From the NCBI GenBank assembly GCA_030752795.1, contig JASMDM010000003.1:10832-74831 (forward strand): a DNA stretch of 64,000 bases, in the 5' to 3' direction. This DNA comes from SAR202 cluster bacterium (GTDB lineage: Bacteria > Chloroflexota > Dehalococcoidia > Lucifugimonadales > UBA1123). The notes beneath the pieces are model-generated. The model worked only from the letters and a program-made list of their open reading frames with translations. It ran no database searches and was not told where the DNA came from. The number at the start of each line of letters is the position of its first letter. Position 1 is the first letter of the stretch. Below are positions 3,026 to 25,037 of the stretch, in pieces. Made by a program: the position numbers and the translations under genes.

Positions 3026-4717
3026 ATGGCGGAAACTATTCAGACCGATGTGTTGGTCGTCGGCGGCGGTGGGGCGGCAGCCCGCGCGGCAGCCGAGGCC
3101 AACAGAGCTGGCGCATCGGTGGTTCTAGCGACTAAGGGACGATTCGGCGCGACAGGCGTTCGCGGCGGGGGCGCCACGGGCATATCGATTTCCGAGGCGA
3201 CCGGCTCCCATGGACTGGGCCGTGTCGGCATGCGCGGCTGGACGGCTGAACAGGTCTTCGACGACGTCATCCAAGTCGGCCTCGGTATGGCCGACCGCAA
3301 GATGGTTCAGATACTTATCGAAGACACCATCGATTCGAGAAATGCGCTCGACGAATGGGGCATCGTGCACCCCGGCGGCCAGGGCATGGGCGCCCGCCAG
3401 CACGGCGTGCCGATCATGGACGTGCTGCACAGGGTCATCCGGCAGAGCGATGTTCGGATACTCGAGCAGTGCCTCGTGACTGACCTCGTAATCAACGATG
3501 GCGAATGCGTTGGCGCGGTCGGCGTGGGCGACGACGGAACCCAATACATCTTCCAAACCAAGGCCGTGGTTCTCGGCACCGGCGGCAACGGTCAGCTCTT
3601 CCGATTCAACATGAACCCGACCGATGTAACCGGCGACGGGTATTCGATGGCCTACAACGCGGGCGCCGACCTGATGAACATGGAGTTCATGCAGATTTTC
3701 CTGGGCACCGTCTATCCGACGACCAACCTCGTCCATAGCTGGGCATGGAGGCGCGGCGAACGGATGACCAACACTCTAGGCGAGGAATTTGCCGCGAACT
3801 ACATTCCCGAAGGCGGAACTCTGGCGCAGGCCCAAACCGAGCACGGAAGGCACAACCCATTCTCCGCGCGCGACCAGTACTCGCGGTACCTCGACATCGG
3901 CATGGTCAATGAGGTCGTCGAAGGTCGCGCTAGCGAACACGGCGCGCTCAACATGTATCTGTCGGACCCGGAGGCGATCCCGGCCGAGCTCAGGGATTGG
4001 TACAACTACCGAGGCATACGCTGGGAGGACGGCCCGCTGCAGGTCGCGATCTGCCACCACTGCTCCAACGGCGGTCTGGTCATCGACGAGAACGCACAGA
4101 GTACGCTCCCTCGGCTTTATGCCGCGGGCGAACAGGCCACGGGCCCCCACGGCGGCGACCGGCTGGGTGGCCACATGCTCACCGCCTCGCAGGTGTTTGG
4201 CGCCAGGGCTGGCAAGCACGCGGCCCGGGTGGCCAAGGGTGCCGCGCCGACGTTCGACTTCGAGGGCGCTCAGGACTCGATCGTGGCGATCGAGGCGTTC
4301 GCAAACAGCAGCGGCGACGAGTCGCCGGCCGCGCTGAAGTCGGAGCTCCAGCACAGCGCTTGGGCGAATTTGCTGGTGGCACGGTCACCCGAGACCTTGA
4401 GCCAGGTGCTGGCGGACATCGGATCGATTCGAGAACGGCTGGCGAACGTCTCGATCAGTAAGCCAACCGACGTCGTACAGGCCCTTGAGGTTCGAAGCCT
4501 GCTGACCGTCGGCGAGATGGTCGCCACCGTTGCGATGAATCGCACCGAGAGTCGCGCAGGCCATTATCGCGTTGACTACCCCGAGCAGAACGACACCGAC
4601 TGGTTGAAGACGATCAAGGTCCGGCGCGCGGGCAGCAAGATGGAACTTGAGTCATTCGCCATCGATCCGGACTGGACATCGCGTGAAGGCGACATGGGAG
4701 AGATGGGCTGGGGCTAG
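3026..4717 (+). CDS. FAD-dependent oxidoreductase, SdhA/FrdA/NadB flavoprotein family
   Basis: GGGGAA dinucleotide fold, LGTGG, TGDGY, HHCSNGG, LYAAGE, HGGDRLGG, RTESRAGHYRVDYP; GGAGG RBS before ATG 3026. Confidence 0.88.
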   Translation: MAETIQTDVLVVGGGGAAARAAAEANRAGASVVLATKGRFGATGVRGGGATGISISEATGSHGLGRVGMRGWTAEQVFDDVIQVGLGMADRKMVQILIEDTIDSRNALDEWGIVHPGGQGMGARQHGVPIMDVLHRVIRQSDVRILEQCLVTDLVINDGECVGAVGVGDDGTQYIFQTKAVVLGTGGNGQLFRFNMNPTDVTGDGYSMAYNAGADLMNMEFMQIFLGTVYPTTNLVHSWAWRRGERMTNTLGEEFAANYIPEGGTLAQAQTEHGRHNPFSARDQYSRYLDIGMVNEVVEGRASEHGALNMYLSDPEAIPAELRDWYNYRGIRWEDGPLQVAICHHCSNGGLVIDENAQSTLPRLYAAGEQATGPHGGDRLGGHMLTASQVFGARAGKHAARVAKGAAPTFDFEGAQDSIVAIEAFANSSGDESPAALKSELQHSAWANLLVARSPETLSQVLADIGSIRERLANVSISKPTDVVQALEVRSLLTVGEMVATVAMNRTESRAGHYRVDYPEQNDTDWLKTIKVRRAGSKMELESFAIDPDWTSREGDMGEMGWG

Positions 4718-4738
4718 GATAGCCACTGTGCTTCGATT

Positions 4739-4773
4739 CCCGGGGCGGCGCACTCGACCCGCGCCGCCCTGGG
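4739..4773 (+). terminator. GC-rich stem-loop downstream of the flavoprotein gene
   Basis: cccggggcggcgc / gcgccgccctggg 13-bp stem (one G-U); no clear U tract. Confidence 0.45.
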
Positions 4774-5012
4774 TGAATGTATGCGGTTTCCGACCGACGG
4801 TTGTTAGATTACAAGACACGTGGCTTGCCACAGCGCCACCCGCCAGGCGACCTCGGATATCGTCGGTCTGATTCCTCCATCGAATTTGCTGAAGTTGCGT
4901 CACAAACGGGACAGGCCAACACCGCGGATTGTCGTCAGCGGAACGCATCAAGCTCATAGATCGAGTTGAACCTTGTCGATCCGGATCTGTCCCACCCGCC
5001 CACCCGCGAAAG

Positions 5013-5060
5013 TTCTGTGGGGACACCCCACACCCCGGCAGGGCTTCGCCCTTGCATCCC
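5013..5060. repeat. REP-like double-hairpin element
   Basis: tgtggggacaccccaca followed by cagggcttcgcccttg; degenerate relative near 38974-38998 (tttctcggggacaccacac). Confidence 0.5.
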
Positions 5061-5311
5061 GATTCAATCCGATTGATGCCGACAGTTGTCCAATCTGATC
5101 ATTCTGTCGTCGGATTGAATCAGCAAGGTTGCGTAGACCTTCACCACAAATGCGGTGAAGTCGTTGACCCATAGCAGGGTAAATGTTTCGACTGATAACG
5201 CGAGTCAGGCAGAATTCTTGCGTGCGGGAACATCGTGTCCTTCGCGGGGCGTAGGGCGCCACAAGTGCGAGTGGGATTGGTTTGGAACGCTCGCGGATTG
5301 AGGGAAAACGT

Positions 5312-6508
5312 ATGCCACTAGGATTCGGAATAATTGGCGCCGGGCAGCGGTGTATGTACTTCTTTGGACCTGACATCCAGCGCAATGCCGACCGCGCGAA
5401 GTTGGTCGCGCTGGCCGAACCTGACCAGGGACGCCGCAGCAGCGCGATCGACGACCTTGGCGGCGACATCCGCGCGTACGGCGACATCGAAGAACTGCTC
5501 GGAGACCCGAAGGTCGATGCGGTCATTATCGCGTCCCCGGACTTCACCCACCAAGAGCTGCTCGACAAGGCGCTGGACGCGGGCAAGCATGTGATCTGCG
5601 AGAAGCCGATGGCGACCACGTTGGACGACGCCCGCCACATGGCGCGTCGAGCGCAGGCAGCGCCCCAGGTCGTGCAGATCGGTTTCATGCTGCGTTACGC
5701 GCCCATGTTCGTGCGCATCAAAGAGATCGTCGATTCCGGGATCATCGGTGACTTGGTCCAGGTCAGCGCCGCCGAGATTATCGAGTACTATCACGGGGCA
5801 TCGTTCTACCGGCGGTGGCAGCGATTTCGGAAGAACAGCGGCGGTCTTCTGGTGCACAAGGCATGCCACGCATTCGACGTCGTCAACTGGATCGTGGGCT
5901 CGGCGCCGACTCAGGTTAGCGCCACCGGCAACAATGACACGTTCGTAGCAAAACCCGACGCCGCCTCGCGTTGCCGGGACTGCTCACTTGCTCCAACCTG
6001 TCCGGCGGTCTACCGGGACGATGCGTACAACTACGTCTACCCGACCGTCGCGGAGCGCGCCAATCCGGGCGAGCTCGGGAACGACATATGCGCGTTCAAT
6101 TCGGAAAAGGACATCATCGACAACGCCACGGGCATGGCTTCTTACGAGAACGGGGTTCGGTTGTCGTTCAACTTCGCGACGACCGGCCAGCGCCACGATC
6201 GGCGGTTCATGTTCGTCGGGCAGCGAGGCGTCGTGACGGCGAGTCAAGCCGACGGGACCCTCGTCGTAGAGCCGGTCGGCGGAGAGATCGAGACCACGGT
6301 GTTGCCGGAGGAGCTCCGCGACGAACACGGCGGCGGCGACGAATACTTGCTGCAGTCATTCCTCGACTCGGTCGCCGGCGGAGAGCCGCCCGCCGCCGAC
6401 GTTGTCGCGGGAATGCACAGCCTCGCGCTTGCTTTGGGCGCAACGGAGTCGATCGATCGTGACGGAGCGGCGGTTGATCTGCGTCCGCATCTCGAAGGTC
6501 TGTCGTAG
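5312..6508 (+). CDS. Gfo/Idh/MocA family oxidoreductase
   Basis: GIIGAG, ASPDFTH, CEKPMA, GGLLVHKACHAFD, HGGGD. Confidence 0.9.
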   Translation: MPLGFGIIGAGQRCMYFFGPDIQRNADRAKLVALAEPDQGRRSSAIDDLGGDIRAYGDIEELLGDPKVDAVIIASPDFTHQELLDKALDAGKHVICEKPMATTLDDARHMARRAQAAPQVVQIGFMLRYAPMFVRIKEIVDSGIIGDLVQVSAAEIIEYYHGASFYRRWQRFRKNSGGLLVHKACHAFDVVNWIVGSAPTQVSATGNNDTFVAKPDAASRCRDCSLAPTCPAVYRDDAYNYVYPTVAERANPGELGNDICAFNSEKDIIDNATGMASYENGVRLSFNFATTGQRHDRRFMFVGQRGVVTASQADGTLVVEPVGGEIETTVLPEELRDEHGGGDEYLLQSFLDSVAGGEPPAADVVAGMHSLALALGATESIDRDGAAVDLRPHLEGLS

Positions 6509-20308: not shown

Positions 20309-20506
20309 ACCCCACTTCACACTCTTCACTCGAAGCCCAACCGGACCTTGAATCCGAGAGACAAGCGTCAGTACGGAAACGTCGCCGAGGCAAGCTACCT
20401 TCTGCGGTAACCAAGCTTGCGAGTCCGCTTGACCGACGCATAGCGCCGGTGATAGCTAGCTTGCAGCAAAACGTCTGTTAATTCGAGAAACGTTCTTCAG
20501 GTAAAC

Positions 20507-21790
20507 ATGCGTTTACGACGATCCCCGGCTCCACCAACCGACGCTTCGACAGCCAAACCCACGCTGCTGTCAGCCCTGGCTCAATTCCGGATGTTCGAAT
20601 CGCTGCAGATTCGCGACTTCCGGTGGTTGTGGCTAGCCTCCATGGGCTCGTTCATGGCCATGAACATGCAGATGATCACGAGAGGCTGGCTCGTCCTCCG
20701 CCTGGCCGACGACTCTCCCCTGGCGCTGGCATTCGTAATGATGACGTTCTCGGTGCCAATGACACTGGTCTCGCCGCTGGCTGGAGCTCTGTCGGACAGA
20801 ATCCCCCGAAAACGTCTGGTGATTATGAGCCAGGCCGGCAATGGCGTGTTTACGCTCATGCTTGCAGCCCTGGATCTATCCGGAGTTGTCACGTTCTGGA
20901 TGGTTTTGGTAATCGGCGTATTGAACGGATCGATGTCCGCTTTCCAGATGCCGAGTCGCCAGGCGATGATTGCCGACATCGTGCCCGAGTCCAAGCTGAT
21001 GAATGCGATCTCTCTGAACAATTCGGGGATGAACATATCGCGCATCGTTGGCCCTGCTCTGGCGGGCGTGCTGATCATTTTCATCGAGACCGCCGGTGTT
21101 TTCTTCGTAGTGGGCGGCGTGTATCTGGTCTCGGTTGCGGCGGTCATGAGGATCACCGGGACGCAGGTGATAATCGACCGCCCTCGCAAGAGCGTTCTAG
21201 GAGACATACGCGAGGGCCTGGTGTACGTTGCCGCCGACCCAGTGCGACGCGGTCTCATTATCATGGCGATCATTCCGGAGCTATTCGGGTTCTCGTTCTT
21301 CGTCCTGCTTCCCGCGTGGGCGCGAGAGGCTTTGGACGTGCAATCGGACGGCCTTGGGATGCTCCTAACGTTCATGGGAATCGGCGCGTTGGCGGGAACC
21401 CTCATCCTCGCTTCAATGAACAATTTGAGCCGACGAGGGATGGTCGTCGTGGTCTCGTGCGTGCTGTGGGGAATCGGGTTGACGTTCAGCTCGCAAGTGA
21501 CATCCTACGTCCTGGCGGTGCCGCTGCTGCTGTTTGTCGGCTTTGTCAGCGCGCTGTTTATGTCCCTGAGCGTGACGCTCATACAGCTCAACTCCGCTCC
21601 CGAGATGCGGGGCCGGATGATGAGCGTACGCATGATGACGCTCGGGTTCATGCCGGTGACTTCCGTGCCGTTTGGGGCCGTCGCGGAGCGCATCGGGACT
21701 CCGGACGCGCTGCTCATCAGCGGGGTGCTTCTGATGGTGGTCACAATCGTGTTCGCGCTGGCCAGCCCCGGTTTCAGAAGGATCAAGTGA
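20507..21790 (+). CDS. MFS transporter (MFS_3/EntS-like)
   Basis: RDFRWLW, GALSDRIPRK, PSRQAMI, NAISLN, GPALAG, PEMRGRMMS. Confidence 0.9.
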   Translation: MRLRRSPAPPTDASTAKPTLLSALAQFRMFESLQIRDFRWLWLASMGSFMAMNMQMITRGWLVLRLADDSPLALAFVMMTFSVPMTLVSPLAGALSDRIPRKRLVIMSQAGNGVFTLMLAALDLSGVVTFWMVLVIGVLNGSMSAFQMPSRQAMIADIVPESKLMNAISLNNSGMNISRIVGPALAGVLIIFIETAGVFFVVGGVYLVSVAAVMRITGTQVIIDRPRKSVLGDIREGLVYVAADPVRRGLIIMAIIPELFGFSFFVLLPAWAREALDVQSDGLGMLLTFMGIGALAGTLILASMNNLSRRGMVVVVSCVLWGIGLTFSSQVTSYVLAVPLLLFVGFVSALFMSLSVTLIQLNSAPEMRGRMMSVRMMTLGFMPVTSVPFGAVAERIGTPDALLISGVLLMVVTIVFALASPGFRRIK

Positions 21791-21967
21791 CGGCGAGGTC
21801 GGGTCGGGCGCTCCCGCATGCGGGATCTATCAACGGGCAGGTGCAACGAGCGGTTTTCGTGGCGTTCCCCAAGGCGCCAGAATATCCCAGCGCCGCGTCT
21901 GTCAACGATTGGCGCTTGGCTCGCGCCAATTTTTCCATTCACCGCCCCGGATATCGCTAACACTGCC

Positions 21968-22767
21968 ATGATTATCGACGCACACGTACATCTGTCGCTC
22001 TACGACGGCAACGCAAATTCCCTCGCAGACAGCAAAACCGTATTGCTGGACGAGATGCGTCGACGCGGCATCGATCGCGCGATCGTCATTCCGGACAGCC
22101 AAGAAGCGCGCTATGACATCGCGGGTTTCGAAACCGCGCGTACGCTCATCGACGATGCTGATCCACTCGATTTGTTAGGCAGCCCCGATATCCTGGACGG
22201 CCGAGTGCAGGATTTCGACCGATACGAAATATTACTGGCGGACAGGACGATTCACGGTTTGAAGTTCTTTCCTGGTCACGAGCCGTACTATCCCACTGAC
22301 AGCAGATGCCTTCCCTACTACGAGATTGGCCAGCGTCAACGCCTACCAGTCGTGTTCCACACAGGTGAGAATCCCGAAAATCGCGACGCGGCGAGATTCA
22401 ACGACCCCAAGTACATCGCCGAGGTCACCGAAAGATTTCCGGCCCTAAGTGTAGTAATCACCCACTATTTCTGGCCTCGGATCGAATACTGCTACGAAGT
22501 GACAAAAGATGTCCCCAACATTGACTTCGAGCTCGCCGGAACTGCAGACGGAGCAGTAGTTCGAGCATCTGGAGGGATAGGCGCGATGCGAGACGTGTTG
22601 GGACGCATGATTCAGGATCATCCGAGTCAAGTCATGCTCGGAACCGACTGGCCGATGTGCAACATTCAAGGTCACCTGGATCTTGTCGATTCGCTCGGAT
22701 TAAATCAACCGACCGCAACAGGGTGCTGGGTGGAAACGCGGCGGCCGTTTTCGAACTGCCGGTATGA
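21968..22767 (+). CDS. Amidohydrolase_2 family metal-dependent hydrolase, with a -1 frameshift near the C-terminus
   Basis: IIDAHVH, GLKFFP, VVFHTG, VITH, MLGTDWP. The family-like terminal helix (DRNRVLGGNAAAVFEL, stop 22765-22767) lies in another frame after about 22707; as written the ORF ends at 22783. Confidence 0.8.
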
Positions 22768-22915
22768 CATAACGAATCCGTGACGTGTGGTTCTTGATCA
22801 CGTTGATTCTCTGTTCCTGGGCGTCGAGGCCATAGCCGGGAGGCGGCTGCGGAATTGGTGGACGCATCGGCCGCGGGAACGAGCCGGGAGGGACGAGCCC
22901 CGCAATCGAGGATAG

Positions 22916-22958
22916 AAAGAAAAAAGAAAGGACGGGCGCATGCGAGAGCCCGTCCTTT
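22916..22958 (-). terminator. Rho-independent terminator of the deiodinase-like gene
   Basis: aaaggacgggc / gcccgtccttt stem followed on the minus strand by a T-rich tract (ctttttttctttc). Confidence 0.8.
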
Positions 22959-22997
22959 GTTCGTCTGATTGGTTCGGATGCCCGAGATGACTGAGTT

Positions 22998-23582
22998 CTA
23001 GTCCCCGTCACCGCCGACCGGCACGCTCACGTCGGCCATGCCTTCCGCTCGGAGCTCTTGGAGCACCTTCACGACCTCTTCGTGCATGGTCCACGTCGAC
23101 TTGTAGACGACCCTGCCCGTTTTGTCGATGACGTAGATCATGTTGGGCAAGCCACCGAACATCTTGTGGATCGCCTCGTCATATCCGTCGATCAAAACCG
23201 GAACTTTCATGCCATGGTCCTCAACGAGCTCGCACGCGTAGCCTGTCTTGTGTTCATAACTCGTATGCTTTGAGTACTGCTCGAATCGCTTTCTACCAGC
23301 ATGAGGCTCCCGCATGTACACGTTCAAAATCTGGATGTTGCCCGCGAACTCCTCGGCGGTTTCTTCCACTACGGCAACCTGCCGCAGATAGGGGGGTCAG
23401 GTGATCGCGCCGAACTCAATCACAAGATGCTTCTTGCTCAAGAAGTCGGCCGCGTCGATCCAGTCGCCTTCCGTGGTTTGCAACCGGAACGTTGGAGCCT
23501 GGGAACTTGGTTCGATGATCGTTTTGAAGTCTTTAAAAAAGCCGCCTTGTTCTCGGGTTGACCTTCCTCCGGGCTGTCGCAA
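22998..23582 (-). CDS. Iodothyronine deiodinase-like thioredoxin-fold selenoprotein (UGA=Sec at 23397-23399)
   Basis: ORFs 23397..23582 and 22998..23369 share a frame and join through TGA: HLVIEFGAIT-U-PPYLRQV...NVYMREPH...PVLIDG...GGLPNMIYVIDKTGRVVY. SECIS-like hairpin follows the TGA; 5' end uncertain. Confidence 0.85.
23369..23387 (-). promoter_or_regulatory. Bacterial SECIS-like hairpin
   Basis: mRNA CUGCGGC-AGGUU-GCCGUAG; loop starts 17 nt after UGA, G at loop position 2. Confidence 0.75.
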
Positions 23583-23825
23583 TTACGCTGACTTGTCGCT
23601 ACACGTCGACCGGTCGCGGTGGAAGACTCGGATAGTCTGCTCGTGGTTCCATGTGGGCTTCCTCCTGCCATGCAATCCTTGAATATATTCGTAACGCCGA
23701 GTCGCGACGACCAAGGCATTGCCCCATTTGGCGACCGGTGTGCATCAGCCTGCGATCGTTGTCAACCACGGCTCGCTTGACGTCTATACCGCATCGATCC
23801 GAGGCGCCGATTGGCTGCGGTGGTT

Positions 23826-23864
23826 TTGACCGCTGGCTATCATAGTGATATTATTTTCATAGCA
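23826..23864 (+). promoter_or_regulatory. Sigma70 promoter overlapped by a putative operator
   Basis: TTGACC (23826) - 17 nt - TATTAT (23849), overlapped by GCTATCA-tag-TGATATTA-ttt-TCATAGCA. Confidence 0.55.
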
Positions 23865-23938
23865 TATAGAGATTGAAGACCGTCCGTTGGACCGTGAATA
23901 TCGTCTCGAGAAAGCGGCACTCCCAGGAAGCATGGACA

Positions 23939-24799
23939 ATGATTCAGGAGAAAAGAGCTCTCGCAGTTAATGGTTGGCCGGTCGTGATTATAGGAGTCGC
24001 TTGCATCGCCGGATTTGCGGTCTCCGTCATCAACGAGGTGATCGCCGGTTGGATCGTGTCGGCCGTGGGCGTCGCGATCGGCGCGTTGATCGCGGCCGGA
24101 TTGTTCATCGTGAACCCGAACGAAGCGAAGGTCGTCCAGCTCTTCGGAAAATACGCTGGCACCGCTAAACAGCCAGGGCTCTGGTGGATGAACCCGTTCG
24201 CCTATCCGAAGCTAAAAGTGTCCCAGCGAGTTCGCAATTTCGAGAGCGGCCGGCTGAAGGTCAACGACCGCGACGGCAATCCCGTCGAGATCGCCTCAGT
24301 CGTCGTGTGGAAGGTCGACGACACGGCGGACGCCGTATTCCAGGTGGACGACTACGAAAACTTCGTGCAGGTGCAAAGCGAGGCGGCTCTTAGGAACATG
24401 GCCACCACGTACCCGTACGACACCGACGTCGACAGCGAGCTCGCACCGAGGCGCAGCAACGTAGAGATTACAGACAAGCTGCGCTCGGAGATCCAGGATA
24501 GGCTTACGAAGGCGGGCATCGACGTGATCGAAGCGAGGATCAGCCACATCGCCTACGCCGCGGAAATCGCGGGCGCGATGCTTCGACGCCAACAGGCCGG
24601 GGCCGTGGTGGCGGCAAGGACTCAGATCGTCGAAGGCGCGGTTGGAATGGTGGAGATGGCCCTCGAGGCCCTGACGAAGAAAGAGGTGGTCCAACTCGAC
24701 GAAGAACGCAAAGCCACGATGGTGAGCAACTTGATGGTCGTGCTATGCGGTGACAGAGAGGCGCAGCCCGTCGTCAACACCGGCACGCTGTATCAGTAG
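23939..24799 (+). CDS. SPFH (Band 7) domain membrane protein
   Basis: Two N-terminal TMs, LFGKYAGT, KVNDRDGNPVEIA, ISHIAYAAEIAGAMLRRQQA, VSNLMVVLC...QPVVNTGTLY. Confidence 0.9.
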   Translation: MIQEKRALAVNGWPVVIIGVACIAGFAVSVINEVIAGWIVSAVGVAIGALIAAGLFIVNPNEAKVVQLFGKYAGTAKQPGLWWMNPFAYPKLKVSQRVRNFESGRLKVNDRDGNPVEIASVVVWKVDDTADAVFQVDDYENFVQVQSEAALRNMATTYPYDTDVDSELAPRRSNVEITDKLRSEIQDRLTKAGIDVIEARISHIAYAAEIAGAMLRRQQAGAVVAARTQIVEGAVGMVEMALEALTKKEVVQLDEERKATMVSNLMVVLCGDREAQPVVNTGTLYQ

Positions 24800-24805
24800 C
24801 CGATC

Positions 24806-24991
24806 ATGGCGAAGAAGAAGGCTTTCCTGCTGCGGCTGGACCCTGTCGTCCTCGAATCCTTGCAGCGATGGGCGGCGGATGACCTCCGCAGTGCGAACGC
24901 CCAGGCCGAATTCCTGCTGCGTCGAGCGCTGCACAGCGCCGGGCGGCTGAACGACCGCAACGTCCCCGCAGCCGAAAATGGCGAGGAATAG
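24806..24991 (+). CDS. Small Arc/ribbon-helix-helix DNA-binding protein
   Basis: KKAFLLRLDP...WAADDLRSANAQAEFLLRRAL; the usual partner downstream of this SPFH subfamily. Confidence 0.8.
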   Translation: MAKKKAFLLRLDPVVLESLQRWAADDLRSANAQAEFLLRRALHSAGRLNDRNVPAAENGEE

Positions 24992-25037
24992 ACGGATCGG
25001 GACATTCCGCCCGCGGCGACTCAGTCTTGGGGGTGTG

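What the first reader, a model, noticed from the sequence alone, without database searches (positions are those of the whole stretch)
22998..23582. Split ORFs join into an iodothyronine-deiodinase-like selenoprotein
Seen: ORFs 23397..23582 and 22998..23369 are in one frame, separated only by TGA plus 9 sense codons, giving FGAIT-U-PPY followed by NVYMREPH. A hairpin CUGCGGC-AGGUU-GCCGUAG has its loop 17 nt after the UGA, and a clean terminator follows the gene. Established: animal deiodinases have FGSxT-U-PxF and YIxEAH motifs, and deiodinase-like selenoproteins are known from bacteria with unknown substrate. Inference: a Sec enzyme possibly acting in reductive dehalogenation of halo-organics or as a peroxiredoxin-like reductase. 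It also independently supports Sec use in this genome.
Basis: partly seen in the sequence, partly recalled or inferred. Interest (0 to 1): 0.78.

Follow-up and report, generated by a model that had tools for sequence, protein, structure and literature searches.

The report
Deiodinase-like selenoprotein gene, damaged start
This is a real selenocysteine-encoding gene of the bacterial deiodinase-like family, known since 2005 with its substrate still unknown; in this marine genome its original start region is broken.

Summary
On the minus strand, 23582..22998 is one frame of 194 codons with a single in-frame TGA (23399-23397), giving FGAIT-U-PPY. A hairpin follows it (23387-23369) and a terminator follows the gene (22955-22920).

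The read-through protein matches Pfam T4_deiodinase above its cut-off across both sides of the TGA. A family profile finds mouse Dio3 and Dio2 as the best solved structures.

- The TGA is at the same codon in 71 of the 71 related loci where I could find the motif, out of 80 fetched.
- In 22 of 25 full-length database homologues that position is Cys.
- The genome has tRNA-Sec, selA, selB and selD.

Bacterial deiodinase-like selenoproteins were described in 2005 (PMC1088965), so this is a new member of a known family. Its function is still untested.

One point is new. Close relatives start about 70 nt further upstream (MEPRADYPS...). Here that stretch carries a TAG in place of Met18 and a one-base insertion. 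The same sequence is in independent metagenome assemblies. The catalytic core is intact. I read the gene as 5'-truncated and probably still working; early decay is the main rival.

The parts
22998..23582 (-). Main open frame of 194 codons: TTG 23582, Sec at codon 62, stop TAG 23000-22998. It encodes the whole deiodinase-type thioredoxin-fold core.
   Evidence: Searches give the frame. Pfam T4_deiodinase scores 45.9 bits (cut-off 27) over residues 16-163. The family profile finds Dio3 and Dio2 as the best solved structures.
23397..23399 (-). In-frame UGA read as selenocysteine (FGAIT-U-PPY).
   Evidence: TGA is at this codon in 71 of the 71 loci where the motif was found, out of 80 fetched; no Cys codon was seen. 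In 22 of 25 full-length database homologues the position is Cys. The Sec machinery is in the genome.
23369..23387 (-). Candidate bacterial SECIS hairpin: 7-bp stem with loop AGGUU, the loop starting 17 nt after the UGA.
   Evidence: It is in the minimum-free-energy fold. In 37 aligned sequences 82.2% of cells pair, 4 of 7 pairs show changes on both sides, and 0 of 500 shuffles reach this. 33 of 38 sequences have a perfect stem of at least 5 bp with a G in the loop. Against: RNAalifold did not recover it, and a hairpin this good follows 9.8% of TGA triplets by chance.
22920..22955 (-). Intrinsic terminator: GC-rich stem followed by a U-run, 43 nt after the stop codon.
   Evidence: Fold at -26.6 kcal/mol, z = -3.34. 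The consensus scanner missed it, because its loop is longer than 8.
23599..23666 (-). Remnant of the ancestral 5' end: AGGAGGA (23666-23660), ATG 23652, 17 codons (MEPRADYPSLPPRPVDV), then TAG 23601-23599 where relatives have ATG (Met18).
   Evidence: Translation. L125 and four clusters of 84-residue N-terminal pieces begin with the same peptide or one differing at two residues. Against L125 this stretch shows 6 synonymous and 0 non-synonymous differences.
23533..23598 (-). Continuation of the ancestral frame (RQVSVIATARRKVNPRTRRLF, then TAA 23535-23533), one base out of register with the main frame.
   Evidence: 17 of 21 residues are identical to L125, with dN/dS 0.09.
23531..23541 (-). C-TTTTTT-AAA-G: one base more than in the relative L125. 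This shifts the ancestral frame into the main frame.
   Evidence: Comparison of the window with L125. The same letters are in independent Logan contigs of runs X17 and X4, and in a contig of an RNA library (X19/X20), with 0 differences.

Best explanation
The minus-strand gene at 23582..22998 encodes a cytoplasmic selenoprotein of the iodothyronine-deiodinase family (Pfam PF00837), built on a thioredoxin/peroxiredoxin-like fold.

Decoding (inferred from the standard bacterial pathway; the parts are shown, the event is not). UGA 23399-23397 is read as selenocysteine by SelB carrying Sec-tRNA(Sec), recruited by the hairpin just downstream at 23387-23369.

Subfamily (shown). The gene belongs to a marine subfamily with active site FGAIT-U-PP[YF] and a conserved HTSYEHK in the deiodinase-specific insertion. 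No conserved second cysteine is present.

The 5' end (shown). In this genome the ancestral 5' end of about 39 codons, starting at ATG 23652, is broken by a TAG at codon 18 and by a one-base insertion at 23541-23531.

What is made (inferred, about 0.6). A 194-residue protein starts at TTG 23582. Ribosomes that finish the 17-codon leftover ORF 16 nt upstream may feed that start.

Chemistry (inferred, about one chance in three). Sec62 attacks an electrophile. By analogy with animal deiodinases I favour a halogen on an aromatic ring. The Tyr89-Glu92-His94-His106-Thr61 network would supply the proton, and an external thiol would reduce the oxidised selenium, because no resolving Cys is present.
For: Identity.
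- Pfam T4_deiodinase is the best hit, above its cut-off and across the UGA.
- 43 of 43 aligned family members hit PF00837.
- The profile search of solved structures ranks Dio3 (E 1.3e-26) and Dio2 (E 6.5e-22) far above ResA (E 2.6e-15). Its alignment to ResA leaves a 15-residue gap where the Dio insertion lies.

Sec.
- TGA is conserved in 71 of 71 motif-bearing loci, out of 80 fetched.
- 10 of 13 matches in 41 related genomes carry exactly one TGA.
- 18 of 20 database hits are 107-130-residue C-terminal pieces, as expected if gene callers stop at the UGA. The other two carry G or W at that codon.
- 22 of 25 full-length homologues have Cys there.
- tRNA-Sec, selA, selB and selD are all over their cut-offs, and selD itself contains a TGA.

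Hairpin.. The close relative L125 turns the window's G-U pair into G-C.

Catalytic residues.
- Y89 and E92 are invariant in 43 of 43; H94 is present in 41 of 43; H106 in 35 of 43.
- These align with Dio2 Tyr157, Glu160, His162 and His182. Those residues, with Ser127 and Thr129, are the proposed proton relay (passages of PMC11592359).

The 5' lesions are real.
- L125 and four clusters of 84-residue pieces show the intact form.
- The window's letters recur with 0 differences in contigs of runs X17 and X4.
- 18 DNA runs from 12 studies hold at least 99% of the sampled words. All 18 are flagged as possible sources, and only one can be the source.

The core is still kept.
- No lesion lies in the 178 codons after the frameshift.
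- dN/dS against L125 is 0.10.
- Lineage-specific changes number 9 here against 4 in the L125 type (p = 0.27).
- Both lesions lie in the first ~120 nt of a ~650-nt gene. I put the chance of that for two randomly placed lesions at about 0.04 (my arithmetic).
Against: - No experiment shows Sec insertion or any activity for this protein or for any bacterial family member. My four literature searches and the passages I read found none.
- The hairpin is not statistically unusual on its own. RNAalifold on the 37-sequence alignment predicted a different, weak structure with no covariation. The compensatory changes come from few sequences (the window, L049, L066, L080).
- The TTG start has no Shine-Dalgarno sequence. 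No sigma-70-like promoter was found on the minus strand between 22700 and 23950.
- The lost N-terminal segment is under purifying selection in relatives. An aromatic motif in it is conserved family-wide. Its loss could therefore inactivate the protein.
- The window has Arg at a position that is Glu, Asp or Gln in 17 of 17 other Sec-form loci.
- Dio2 Ser127 of the proton relay is Ala in this subfamily: the window and 12 of the 17 other Sec-form loci in alignment A3.
- The RNA-library contigs cover only 23411-23800, and DNA carry-over cannot be excluded.
- Gene neighbourhood gives no clear functional link.
Confidence: 0.8

Rival explanations
1. The gene is a selenoprotein gene in early decay. 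With its start region destroyed it is no longer translated usefully, and the intact core only reflects how recent the damage is.
For: There are two independent lesions, a TAG at codon 18 and a +1 base, in a segment that relatives keep under purifying selection (0 non-synonymous against 6 synonymous differences, and dN/dS 0.09). No Shine-Dalgarno sequence precedes TTG 23582. The window has Arg at a site that is Glu, Asp or Gln in 17 of 17 other Sec-form loci. Its terminal branch is longer than L125's in the quick tree, 0.34 against 0.09, although that figure includes the out-of-frame N-terminus. No orthologue was found in two same-genus genomes, so the gene is dispensable in the lineage.
Against: Both lesions lie in the first ~120 nt, and the remaining 178 codons, the UGA, the hairpin and the terminator are intact. 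The excess of lineage-specific substitutions is not significant, 9 against 4, p = 0.27. The same allele recurs in runs of 12 studies dated 2017-2025. The TAG sits 16 nt before an in-frame-B TTG, an arrangement that allows termination-reinitiation (sequence).
Confidence: 0.28
2. The protein is made, but it works as a peroxiredoxin-like peroxidase or thiol-disulfide reductase and not as a dehalogenase.
For: Redoxin (33.2 bits) and AhpC-TSA (32.7 bits) also pass their cut-offs. 41 of 43 family members hit AhpC-TSA. A JGI source names a close relative's C-terminal piece 'peroxiredoxin'. The 2005 authors proposed a redox function, because thyroid hormones are not expected in bacteria (passage of PMC1088965). 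Sister subfamilies carry U/C-x-x-C motifs typical of thiol oxidoreductases.
Against: This subfamily has no second conserved Cys (C117 is not conserved, and +3 is Tyr or Phe). From memory, the Prx motif is P-x-x-x-T/S-x-x-C, and by that recollection it is not met: Thr is at -1 and Ala at -3. The residues shared with animal deiodinases are those of the deiodinase-specific insertion and proton relay.
Confidence: 0.35
3. A full-length protein is still made by recoding: read-through of TAG 23601-23599 and a +1 ribosomal slip at CUU-UUU-UAA-A (23541-23532).
For: The ancestral frame between the lesions is still well conserved, 17 of 21 residues. The frameshift site is a slippery UUU-U followed by a stop, with AGGCGG three bases upstream. 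That resembles the RF2 (prfB) +1 site as I recall it (sequence; the resemblance comes from memory, not from a call).
Against: No pyrrolysine machinery was found: PylS and PylD matches are far below their cut-offs in a genome 91% complete. No tRNA with anticodon CTA is among the 41 found; the only stop-reading tRNA is tRNA-Sec. Relatives have neither feature. Two separate rare events would both be needed.
Confidence: 0.03
4. The UGA is a real stop, and the two ORFs are separate small genes or noise.
For: Gene callers in public databases treat it that way.
Against: One protein domain spans the UGA. The TGA is conserved at one codon in 71 of 71 loci. Cys homologues are uninterrupted. The 84-residue pieces of relatives all end exactly at FGAIT or FGSIT.
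Confidence: 0.02

Closest known systems
Bacterial deiodinase-like selenoproteins (Zhang, Fomenko and Gladyshev 2005, Sargasso Sea; also the GOS 2008 survey and later reviews)
   Same: The Pfam family is PF00837. Sec is encoded by UGA with a downstream bacterial SECIS, Cys homologues exist, the origin is marine metagenomic, and the function is unknown (passages). The GOS table lists no UxxC motif for the family, which fits U-P-P-Y/F.
   Different: The 2022 and 2026 review tables give the family's motif as UxxC, whereas this subfamily has Tyr or Phe at +3. I could not see the papers' figures or supplements, so I cannot say whether this exact subfamily was among their sequences. The window's copy is 5'-truncated.
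Animal iodothyronine deiodinases Dio1-3 (structures 4TR3 for Dio3 and 9H48 for Dio2)
   Same: The active-site string matches: FG-x-x-T-U-P-P-F/Y against FGSATUPPF (Dio2) and FGSCTUPPF (Dio3). Y-x-x-E-x-H is shared. The deiodinase insertion has H-x-S/N-x-E-x-K/R. They are the best solved-structure hits. Five of the six proposed proton-relay residues are kept.
   Different: There is no membrane anchor. The first 65 positions of the Pfam profile are unmatched. Ala replaces the relay Ser. The alignments show neither the 'proximal' nor the 'distal' Cys. The SECIS is bacterial and lies inside the coding region, not in a 3' UTR. Thyroid hormones are not an expected substrate.
NCBIfam NF038285, 'deiodinase family protein' (347 positions)
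   Same: The C-terminal half of that model (positions 180-325) aligns with the core.
   Different: The score is 79.1 bits against a cut-off of 250. Three relatives and the genome's own paralogue also score only 63-95 bits. This gene is not a member of that model's family.
Peroxiredoxin, ResA and TlpA-type thioredoxin-fold reductases (PF00578, PF08534)
   Same: The overall fold class is shared, including the N-terminal beta-hairpin module. Pfam scores are just over the cut-offs.
   Different: Their scores are lower than for the deiodinase model. They lack the deiodinase insertion (gap in the ResA alignment). No C-x-x-C and no resolving Cys is present here.

Membership tests
Pfam PF00837 T4_deiodinase | Score over the curated gathering cut-off | tested here: met
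   45.9 bits against 27, residues 16-163. 43 of 43 aligned relatives also match.
Pfam PF00837 T4_deiodinase | Active-site Thr-Sec-Pro in F-G-x-x-T-U-P | tested here: met
   FGAIT-U-PPY. It aligns with Dio2 and Dio3 FGS(A/C)T-C-PPF in the Cys-substituted crystal constructs.
Pfam PF00837 T4_deiodinase | Deiodinase-specific insertion with the conserved His, and the Y-x-x-E-x-H strand (the proton-relay residues of PMC11592359) | tested here: met
   Y89, E92, H94, H106 and T61 are present. The position of the relay Ser is Ala.
Pfam PF00837 T4_deiodinase | Deiodinase fold in three dimensions | not testable with these tools
Only sequence-profile matches to 4TR3 and 9H48 are available.
Pfam PF00837 T4_deiodinase | Reductive dehalogenation activity | not testable with these tools
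   This needs an enzyme assay. My searches found no assay of any bacterial member.
Bacterial selenoprotein gene | In-frame UGA aligned with Cys in homologues, with homology on both sides | tested here: met
   TGA in 71 of 71 loci; Cys in 22 of 25 database homologues, Ser in 2, Gly in 1.
Bacterial selenoprotein gene | Stem-loop with G in a small apical loop shortly downstream of the UGA (the rule quoted in PMC1088965; the 16-37 nt distance is from memory) | tested here: met
   The window has a 7-bp stem, loop AGGUU, at +17. The position is kept in 33 of 38 sequences and the pair counts agree. Caveats: chance rate 9.8%, and RNAalifold did not recover it.
Bacterial selenoprotein gene | tRNA-Sec, SelA, SelB and SelD in the same genome | tested here: met
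   All four are over their cut-offs. The genome is a 116-contig assembly, 91% complete with 5.6% contamination.
Bacterial selenoprotein gene | Selenium actually incorporated | not testable with these tools
   This needs 75Se labelling or mass spectrometry.
NCBIfam NF038285 deiodinase_rel | Score over the curated cut-off (250 bits), full 347-position architecture | tested here: not met
   79.1 bits, and only profile positions 180-325 are matched.
Peroxiredoxin (AhpC-TSA, PF00578) | Score over the cut-off | tested here: met
   32.7 bits against 26, but lower than the deiodinase model.
Peroxiredoxin (AhpC-TSA, PF00578) | P-x-x-x-T/S-x-x-C peroxidatic motif (the motif is from memory) | tested here: not met
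   The sequence before U62 is V-I-E-F-G-A-I-T, with Ala at -3 and no Pro at -7.

The most novel reading that the evidence does not exclude
The marine T-U-P-P-Y/F subfamily has no second cysteine, keeps five of the six deiodinase proton-relay residues, and has a longer deiodinase insertion than the Cys forms. It could be a true selenium-dependent reductive dehalogenase for natural iodo- or bromo-aromatics in seawater, that is, a prokaryotic counterpart of thyroid-hormone deiodination chemistry. A second and much less likely reading (about 0.03) is that the TAG and the UUU-UAA +1 site are bypassed by recoding.
Probability: 0.2. Interest if true: 0.75.

Novelty: new member of a known kind. Interest (0 to 1): 0.3.

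Why it matters
The practical gain is annotation. Public gene calls split this gene and its relatives into an 84-residue piece and a piece of roughly 105-125 residues, named 'hypothetical protein' or 'peroxiredoxin'. They should be joined as one selenoprotein.

The family has had no known substrate since 2005. The comparison here picks out a subfamily whose active site is closest to the animal enzymes and which is common in Nitrospinota. That gives a defined set of proteins on which to test dehalogenation against peroxidase chemistry.

The window's own copy, with its N-terminal segment knocked out by nature, could serve as a natural truncation to compare with the intact relatives.

None of this would surprise a specialist much.

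Tried and rejected
- Structure prediction and fold search. Structure prediction took no jobs on three tries spaced as the tool asked. There is therefore no model and no Foldseek or VIA-align comparison.
I sent nothing else to it.
- RNAalifold on the 37-sequence alignment did not return the hairpin. The alignment mixes two registers of the stem (Val-Ala-Gly and Val-Pro-Gly versions), so I counted pairs for both named registers instead.
- Rfam at E up to 1 over 22800-23900 gave only CrfA at 20.7 bits against a gathering score of 38, which I take as chance.
- The terminator and promoter scanner found no terminator and only a plus-strand promoter-like site.
- RNA libraries X19 and X20 gave contigs over 23411-23800 only. 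The uncovered 3' part says nothing, and transcription is not shown.
- Synteny. A DNA search of 20500-25000 in two same-genus genomes and one same-family genome matched little beyond the MFS gene (80% in G002). There is no informative empty site.
- GC profile: 0.55-0.58 over the gene against 0.55-0.64 nearby, not informative.
- Closer orthologues in the organism's own lineage. The best non-self identity was 36% in 40 relatives, 39% in 400 genomes of the class and 38% in 400 of the phylum. The nearest species-level relatives, at 43-50%, are Nitrospinota assemblies.
- My early guess that the U-P-Y-C subfamily equals NF038285 was wrong; all four sequences tested score below the cut-off.
- Gene context. 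A luciferase-like monooxygenase lies downstream in 12 of 24 orthologue loci, with a flavin reductase next to it in 7. These 12 are near-identical sequences of one clade, so this counts as one event. MFS and Amidohydro_2 neighbours recur loosely (the window, L040, L041, L043, L071) but prove nothing.
- DOI 10.1073/pnas.1323873111 (the Dio3 structure paper) is not held. Residue roles are taken from passages of PMC11592359 instead.
- The careful tree did not finish, so only the quick tree was used.
Full report
**Observation**

On the minus strand, the ORF listing gives 23397..23582 (61 aa, TTG start) and 22998..23369 (123 aa). They share one frame and are separated by TGA 23399-23397 and nine sense codons. 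Read through, the frame has 194 codons with U62 in FGAIT-U-PPY, and NVYMREPH further on.

The hairpin CUGCGGC/AGGUU/GCCGUAG lies at 23387-23369, and its loop starts 17 nt after the UGA. A terminator lies at 22955-22920. It has an 8-bp GC core within an 11-bp stem, folds at -26.6 kcal/mol with z = -3.34, and is followed by UUUCUUUUUU.

**Is it a selenoprotein gene?**

- Family match.
  - Pfam T4_deiodinase scores 45.9 bits (cut-off 27) over residues 16-163, which spans U62. Redoxin (33.2) and AhpC-TSA (32.7) score lower.
  - A single-sequence search of solved structures finds Dio2 (9h48, E 7.4e-7) and Dio3 (4tr3, E 8e-5) first.
  - A profile of 43 family members raises these to E 6.5e-22 and 1.3e-26. 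The next hit, ResA, is at 2.6e-15 and lacks the segment that aligns with the deiodinase insertion.
- Sec machinery. The genome is a 3.5-Mb, 116-contig assembly, 91% complete with 5.6% contamination.
  - It has tRNA-Sec (71.9 bits; ARAGORN anticodon TCA).
  - It has selD (366 bits, itself with one in-frame TGA), selA (545 bits) and selB (302 bits). All are over their cut-offs.
- Database pieces. In the protein database, 18 of 20 hits are 107-130-residue pieces that begin after the UGA. The two longer ones carry G and W at that codon. I read those as translations under other genetic codes.
- Species genomes. A scan returned 80 loci. My motif search found the active site in 71 of them, and all 71 have TGA at the Sec codon and none a Cys codon. 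In the other 9 my pattern found no motif.
- Cys homologues. The exhaustive representative search gave 1252 proteins at E up to 1e-3 and 283 at up to 1e-10. I fetched 30 of these and put 25 into alignment A3. Of those 25, 22 have Cys at the Sec column, 2 Ser and 1 Gly.

This is the classical Sec/Cys signature.

**The hairpin**

Taken alone it is weak evidence.
- The local fold is no better than shuffles.
- 9.8% of all TGA triplets in the window are followed by an equally good hairpin.

Across 37 distinct sequences of the subfamily the named 7-bp helix fares better.
- It pairs in 82.2% of cells. Four of its seven pairs show changes on both sides.
- None of 500 shuffles reaches this, and slid registers reach at most 60.6%.
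- 33 of 38 sequences have a perfect stem of at least 5 bp with a G in the loop at the expected distance.

Against this, RNAalifold did not recover the helix. The compensatory changes come from only a few sequences, and the stem overlaps conserved codons. I call it a good SECIS candidate but do not take it as proven.

**What is already known**

Zhang, Fomenko and Gladyshev (2005) reported Sec and Cys forms of deiodinase-like proteins with bacterial SECIS elements in the Sargasso Sea and proposed a redox role (passages of PMC1088965). The GOS survey lists 22 Sec sequences with no UxxC motif (PMC2398784). Reviews of 2022 and 2026 list the family with motif UxxC and say that functions remain largely unknown. 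My four searches found no enzymology of a bacterial member.

The window's gene is therefore a new member of a known family.

**Subfamilies**

The 71 motif-bearing loci fall into two groups.
- 42 have FGA(I/V)T-U-PP(Y/F). They are mostly Nitrospinota, 43-50% identical to the window, and share HTSYEHK.
- 29 have (F/L)GS-x-(T/S)-U-P-(Y/F)-C. They come mostly from Chloroflexia, Thermomicrobiales and related assemblies and are about 30% identical.

In a quick tree the window pairs with L125 (support 98) and the U-P-x-C group forms a clade (98). The U-P-P group as a whole is only weakly supported, at 18 (the careful search did not finish). Neither group reaches the cut-off of NF038285.

The window's subfamily has no conserved second Cys; C117 is Lys, Arg, Gln or Thr in most. 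It keeps the residues that align with Dio2 Tyr157, Glu160, His162, His182 and Thr129. These are part of the proposed proton relay in passages of PMC11592359. Ala stands where Dio2 has Ser127.

**The start of the gene**

This was not in the finding.
- The intact form in relatives.
  - A metagenome relative, L125 (78% identical), has one open frame: RADYPSLPPRPVDVMRQVS...FGAIT-U.
  - Four database clusters are 84-residue pieces that start MEPRADYPS or MKPRADYNS and end exactly before the UGA.
  - 39 of the 42 U-P-P loci have a comparable N-terminal extension by my pattern, with full lengths of 207-218 residues (one locus is cut at the contig end). The other three look similar by eye.
- The same peptide in the window. 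It is encoded from ATG 23652, which is preceded by AGGAGGA at 23666-23660.
  - Codon 18 is TAG (23601-23599) where relatives have ATG.
  - The frame then runs on as RQVSVIATARRKVNPRTRRLF to TAA 23535-23533.
  - One extra base in C-TTTTTT-AAA (23541-23531) puts the rest of the gene into the frame that opens at TTG 23582.
- The lesions are not a one-off assembly error.
  - A second metagenome contig, L124, is identical apart from about 6 mismatches in 2959 nt.
  - 18 DNA runs of 12 studies hold at least 99% of the sampled words. All are flagged as possible sources, and only one can be.
  - Logan contigs of X17 and X4 show 0 differences. A contig in an RNA library spans both lesions unchanged.
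- TAG is not read in this genome. No PylS or PylD match is over its cut-off. None of the 41 tRNAs found has anticodon CTA.

**Truncated or dying?**

Against L125, the leftover 5' peptide shows 6 synonymous and 0 non-synonymous differences. The inter-lesion stretch has dN/dS 0.09 and the core 0.10. The lesions are therefore recent relative to the divergence.

The core shows no significant excess of lineage-specific changes, 9 against 4, p = 0.27. All damage is confined to the first ~120 nt. The retained 194-residue frame still covers everything that aligns with the crystallised deiodinase cores.

The TAG lies 16 nt before the TTG, so termination-reinitiation after a well-initiated 17-codon ORF is a plausible way to start without a Shine-Dalgarno sequence. 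That step is inference.

I put about 0.6 on a truncated protein that is still made, about 0.3 on decay, and about 0.03 on recoding.

**Function**

Nothing here decides it.
- For deiodinase-like reductive chemistry: the active site is near-identical to Dio2, the insertion and relay residues are shared, and no thiol partner is present in the protein. The source is marine, and from memory halogenated aromatics are common there. Modelling suggests that highly brominated compounds can engage the deiodinase selenium much as thyroid hormones do (abstract and passages of PMC7144113).
- For a peroxidase or thiol-reductase role: the fold class, the Pfam Prx-type hits, and sister subfamilies with U/CxxC motifs.
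- Gene neighbours do not settle it. In the window they are Amidohydro_2 and MFS (convergent) and Band_7 (divergent). In one Nitrospinota clade they are a luciferase-like monooxygenase and a flavin reductase.

I favour Sec-mediated reductive dehalogenation at about one chance in three.

**Distribution**

No orthologue above 39% identity was found in 40 relatives, 400 genomes of the class or 400 of the phylum. The genome does have a second Sec-containing paralogue (U-P-D-C) and a third homologue without a stop. The gene is thus a patchily distributed accessory gene.

**Verdict**

This is an ordinary new member of a known but uncharacterised selenoprotein family, with a damaged 5' end in this genome.

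Noticed in passing
G000:C65:1198-1932 (L037 1198-1932, +); also G000:C33:53069-53452: The same genome has a second deiodinase-like gene with an in-frame TGA (FGSIT-U-PDC, 245 codons, 30% identical) and a third homologue without any stop (23% identical).
   Followed up: partly
G000:C44:28477-29397 (L009): The genome's selD match (366 bits) itself contains one in-frame TGA, which suggests a Sec-containing selenophosphate synthetase.
   Followed up: no
L045, L056, L057, L064, L076, L108, L061, L070, L072 (about 3600-5500); L048, L058, L077: In one Nitrospinota clade the deiodinase-like gene is followed on the same strand by a luciferase-like monooxygenase (12 of 24 loci examined). A flavin reductase follows that in 7 of them. 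In three loci an HNH endonuclease gene sits between the two.
   Followed up: partly
window 23532-23547 (-): AGGCGG-CTT-TTT-TAA-A: a slippery UUU-U before a stop codon, with a Shine-Dalgarno-like hexamer three bases upstream. It lies exactly where the ancestral frame passes into the main frame and resembles the RF2 +1 frameshift site (from memory).
   Followed up: partly
database proteins P0007, P0008, P0179, P0185: Public gene calls split these genes at the UGA into pieces named 'hypothetical protein' or 'peroxiredoxin'. Two ENA translations instead read the TGA as Gly or Trp, apparently because another genetic code was chosen for short contigs.
   Followed up: partly
alignment A4, columns about 140-150: The U-P-P-Y/F subfamily has four or five more residues in the deiodinase insertion (HAGEKR-FENYSQH) than the Cys forms and the U-P-x-C form (HPGE-----K...H).
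   Followed up: no
window 20507-21790 (+), 21818-22783 (+), 23873-24799 (+): The neighbours are an MFS_3/MFS_1 transporter and an Amidohydro_2 protein, both convergent with the gene, and a Band_7/SPFH protein that is divergent. An MFS gene is also convergent in L040, L041 and L043, and an Amidohydro_2 gene lies upstream in L071.
   Followed up: partly
window 22900-23800: Exactly this sequence is held by marine, seawater and hydrothermal-vent metagenome runs of 12 studies dated 2017-2025. The population is therefore widespread in the sea.
   Followed up: partly
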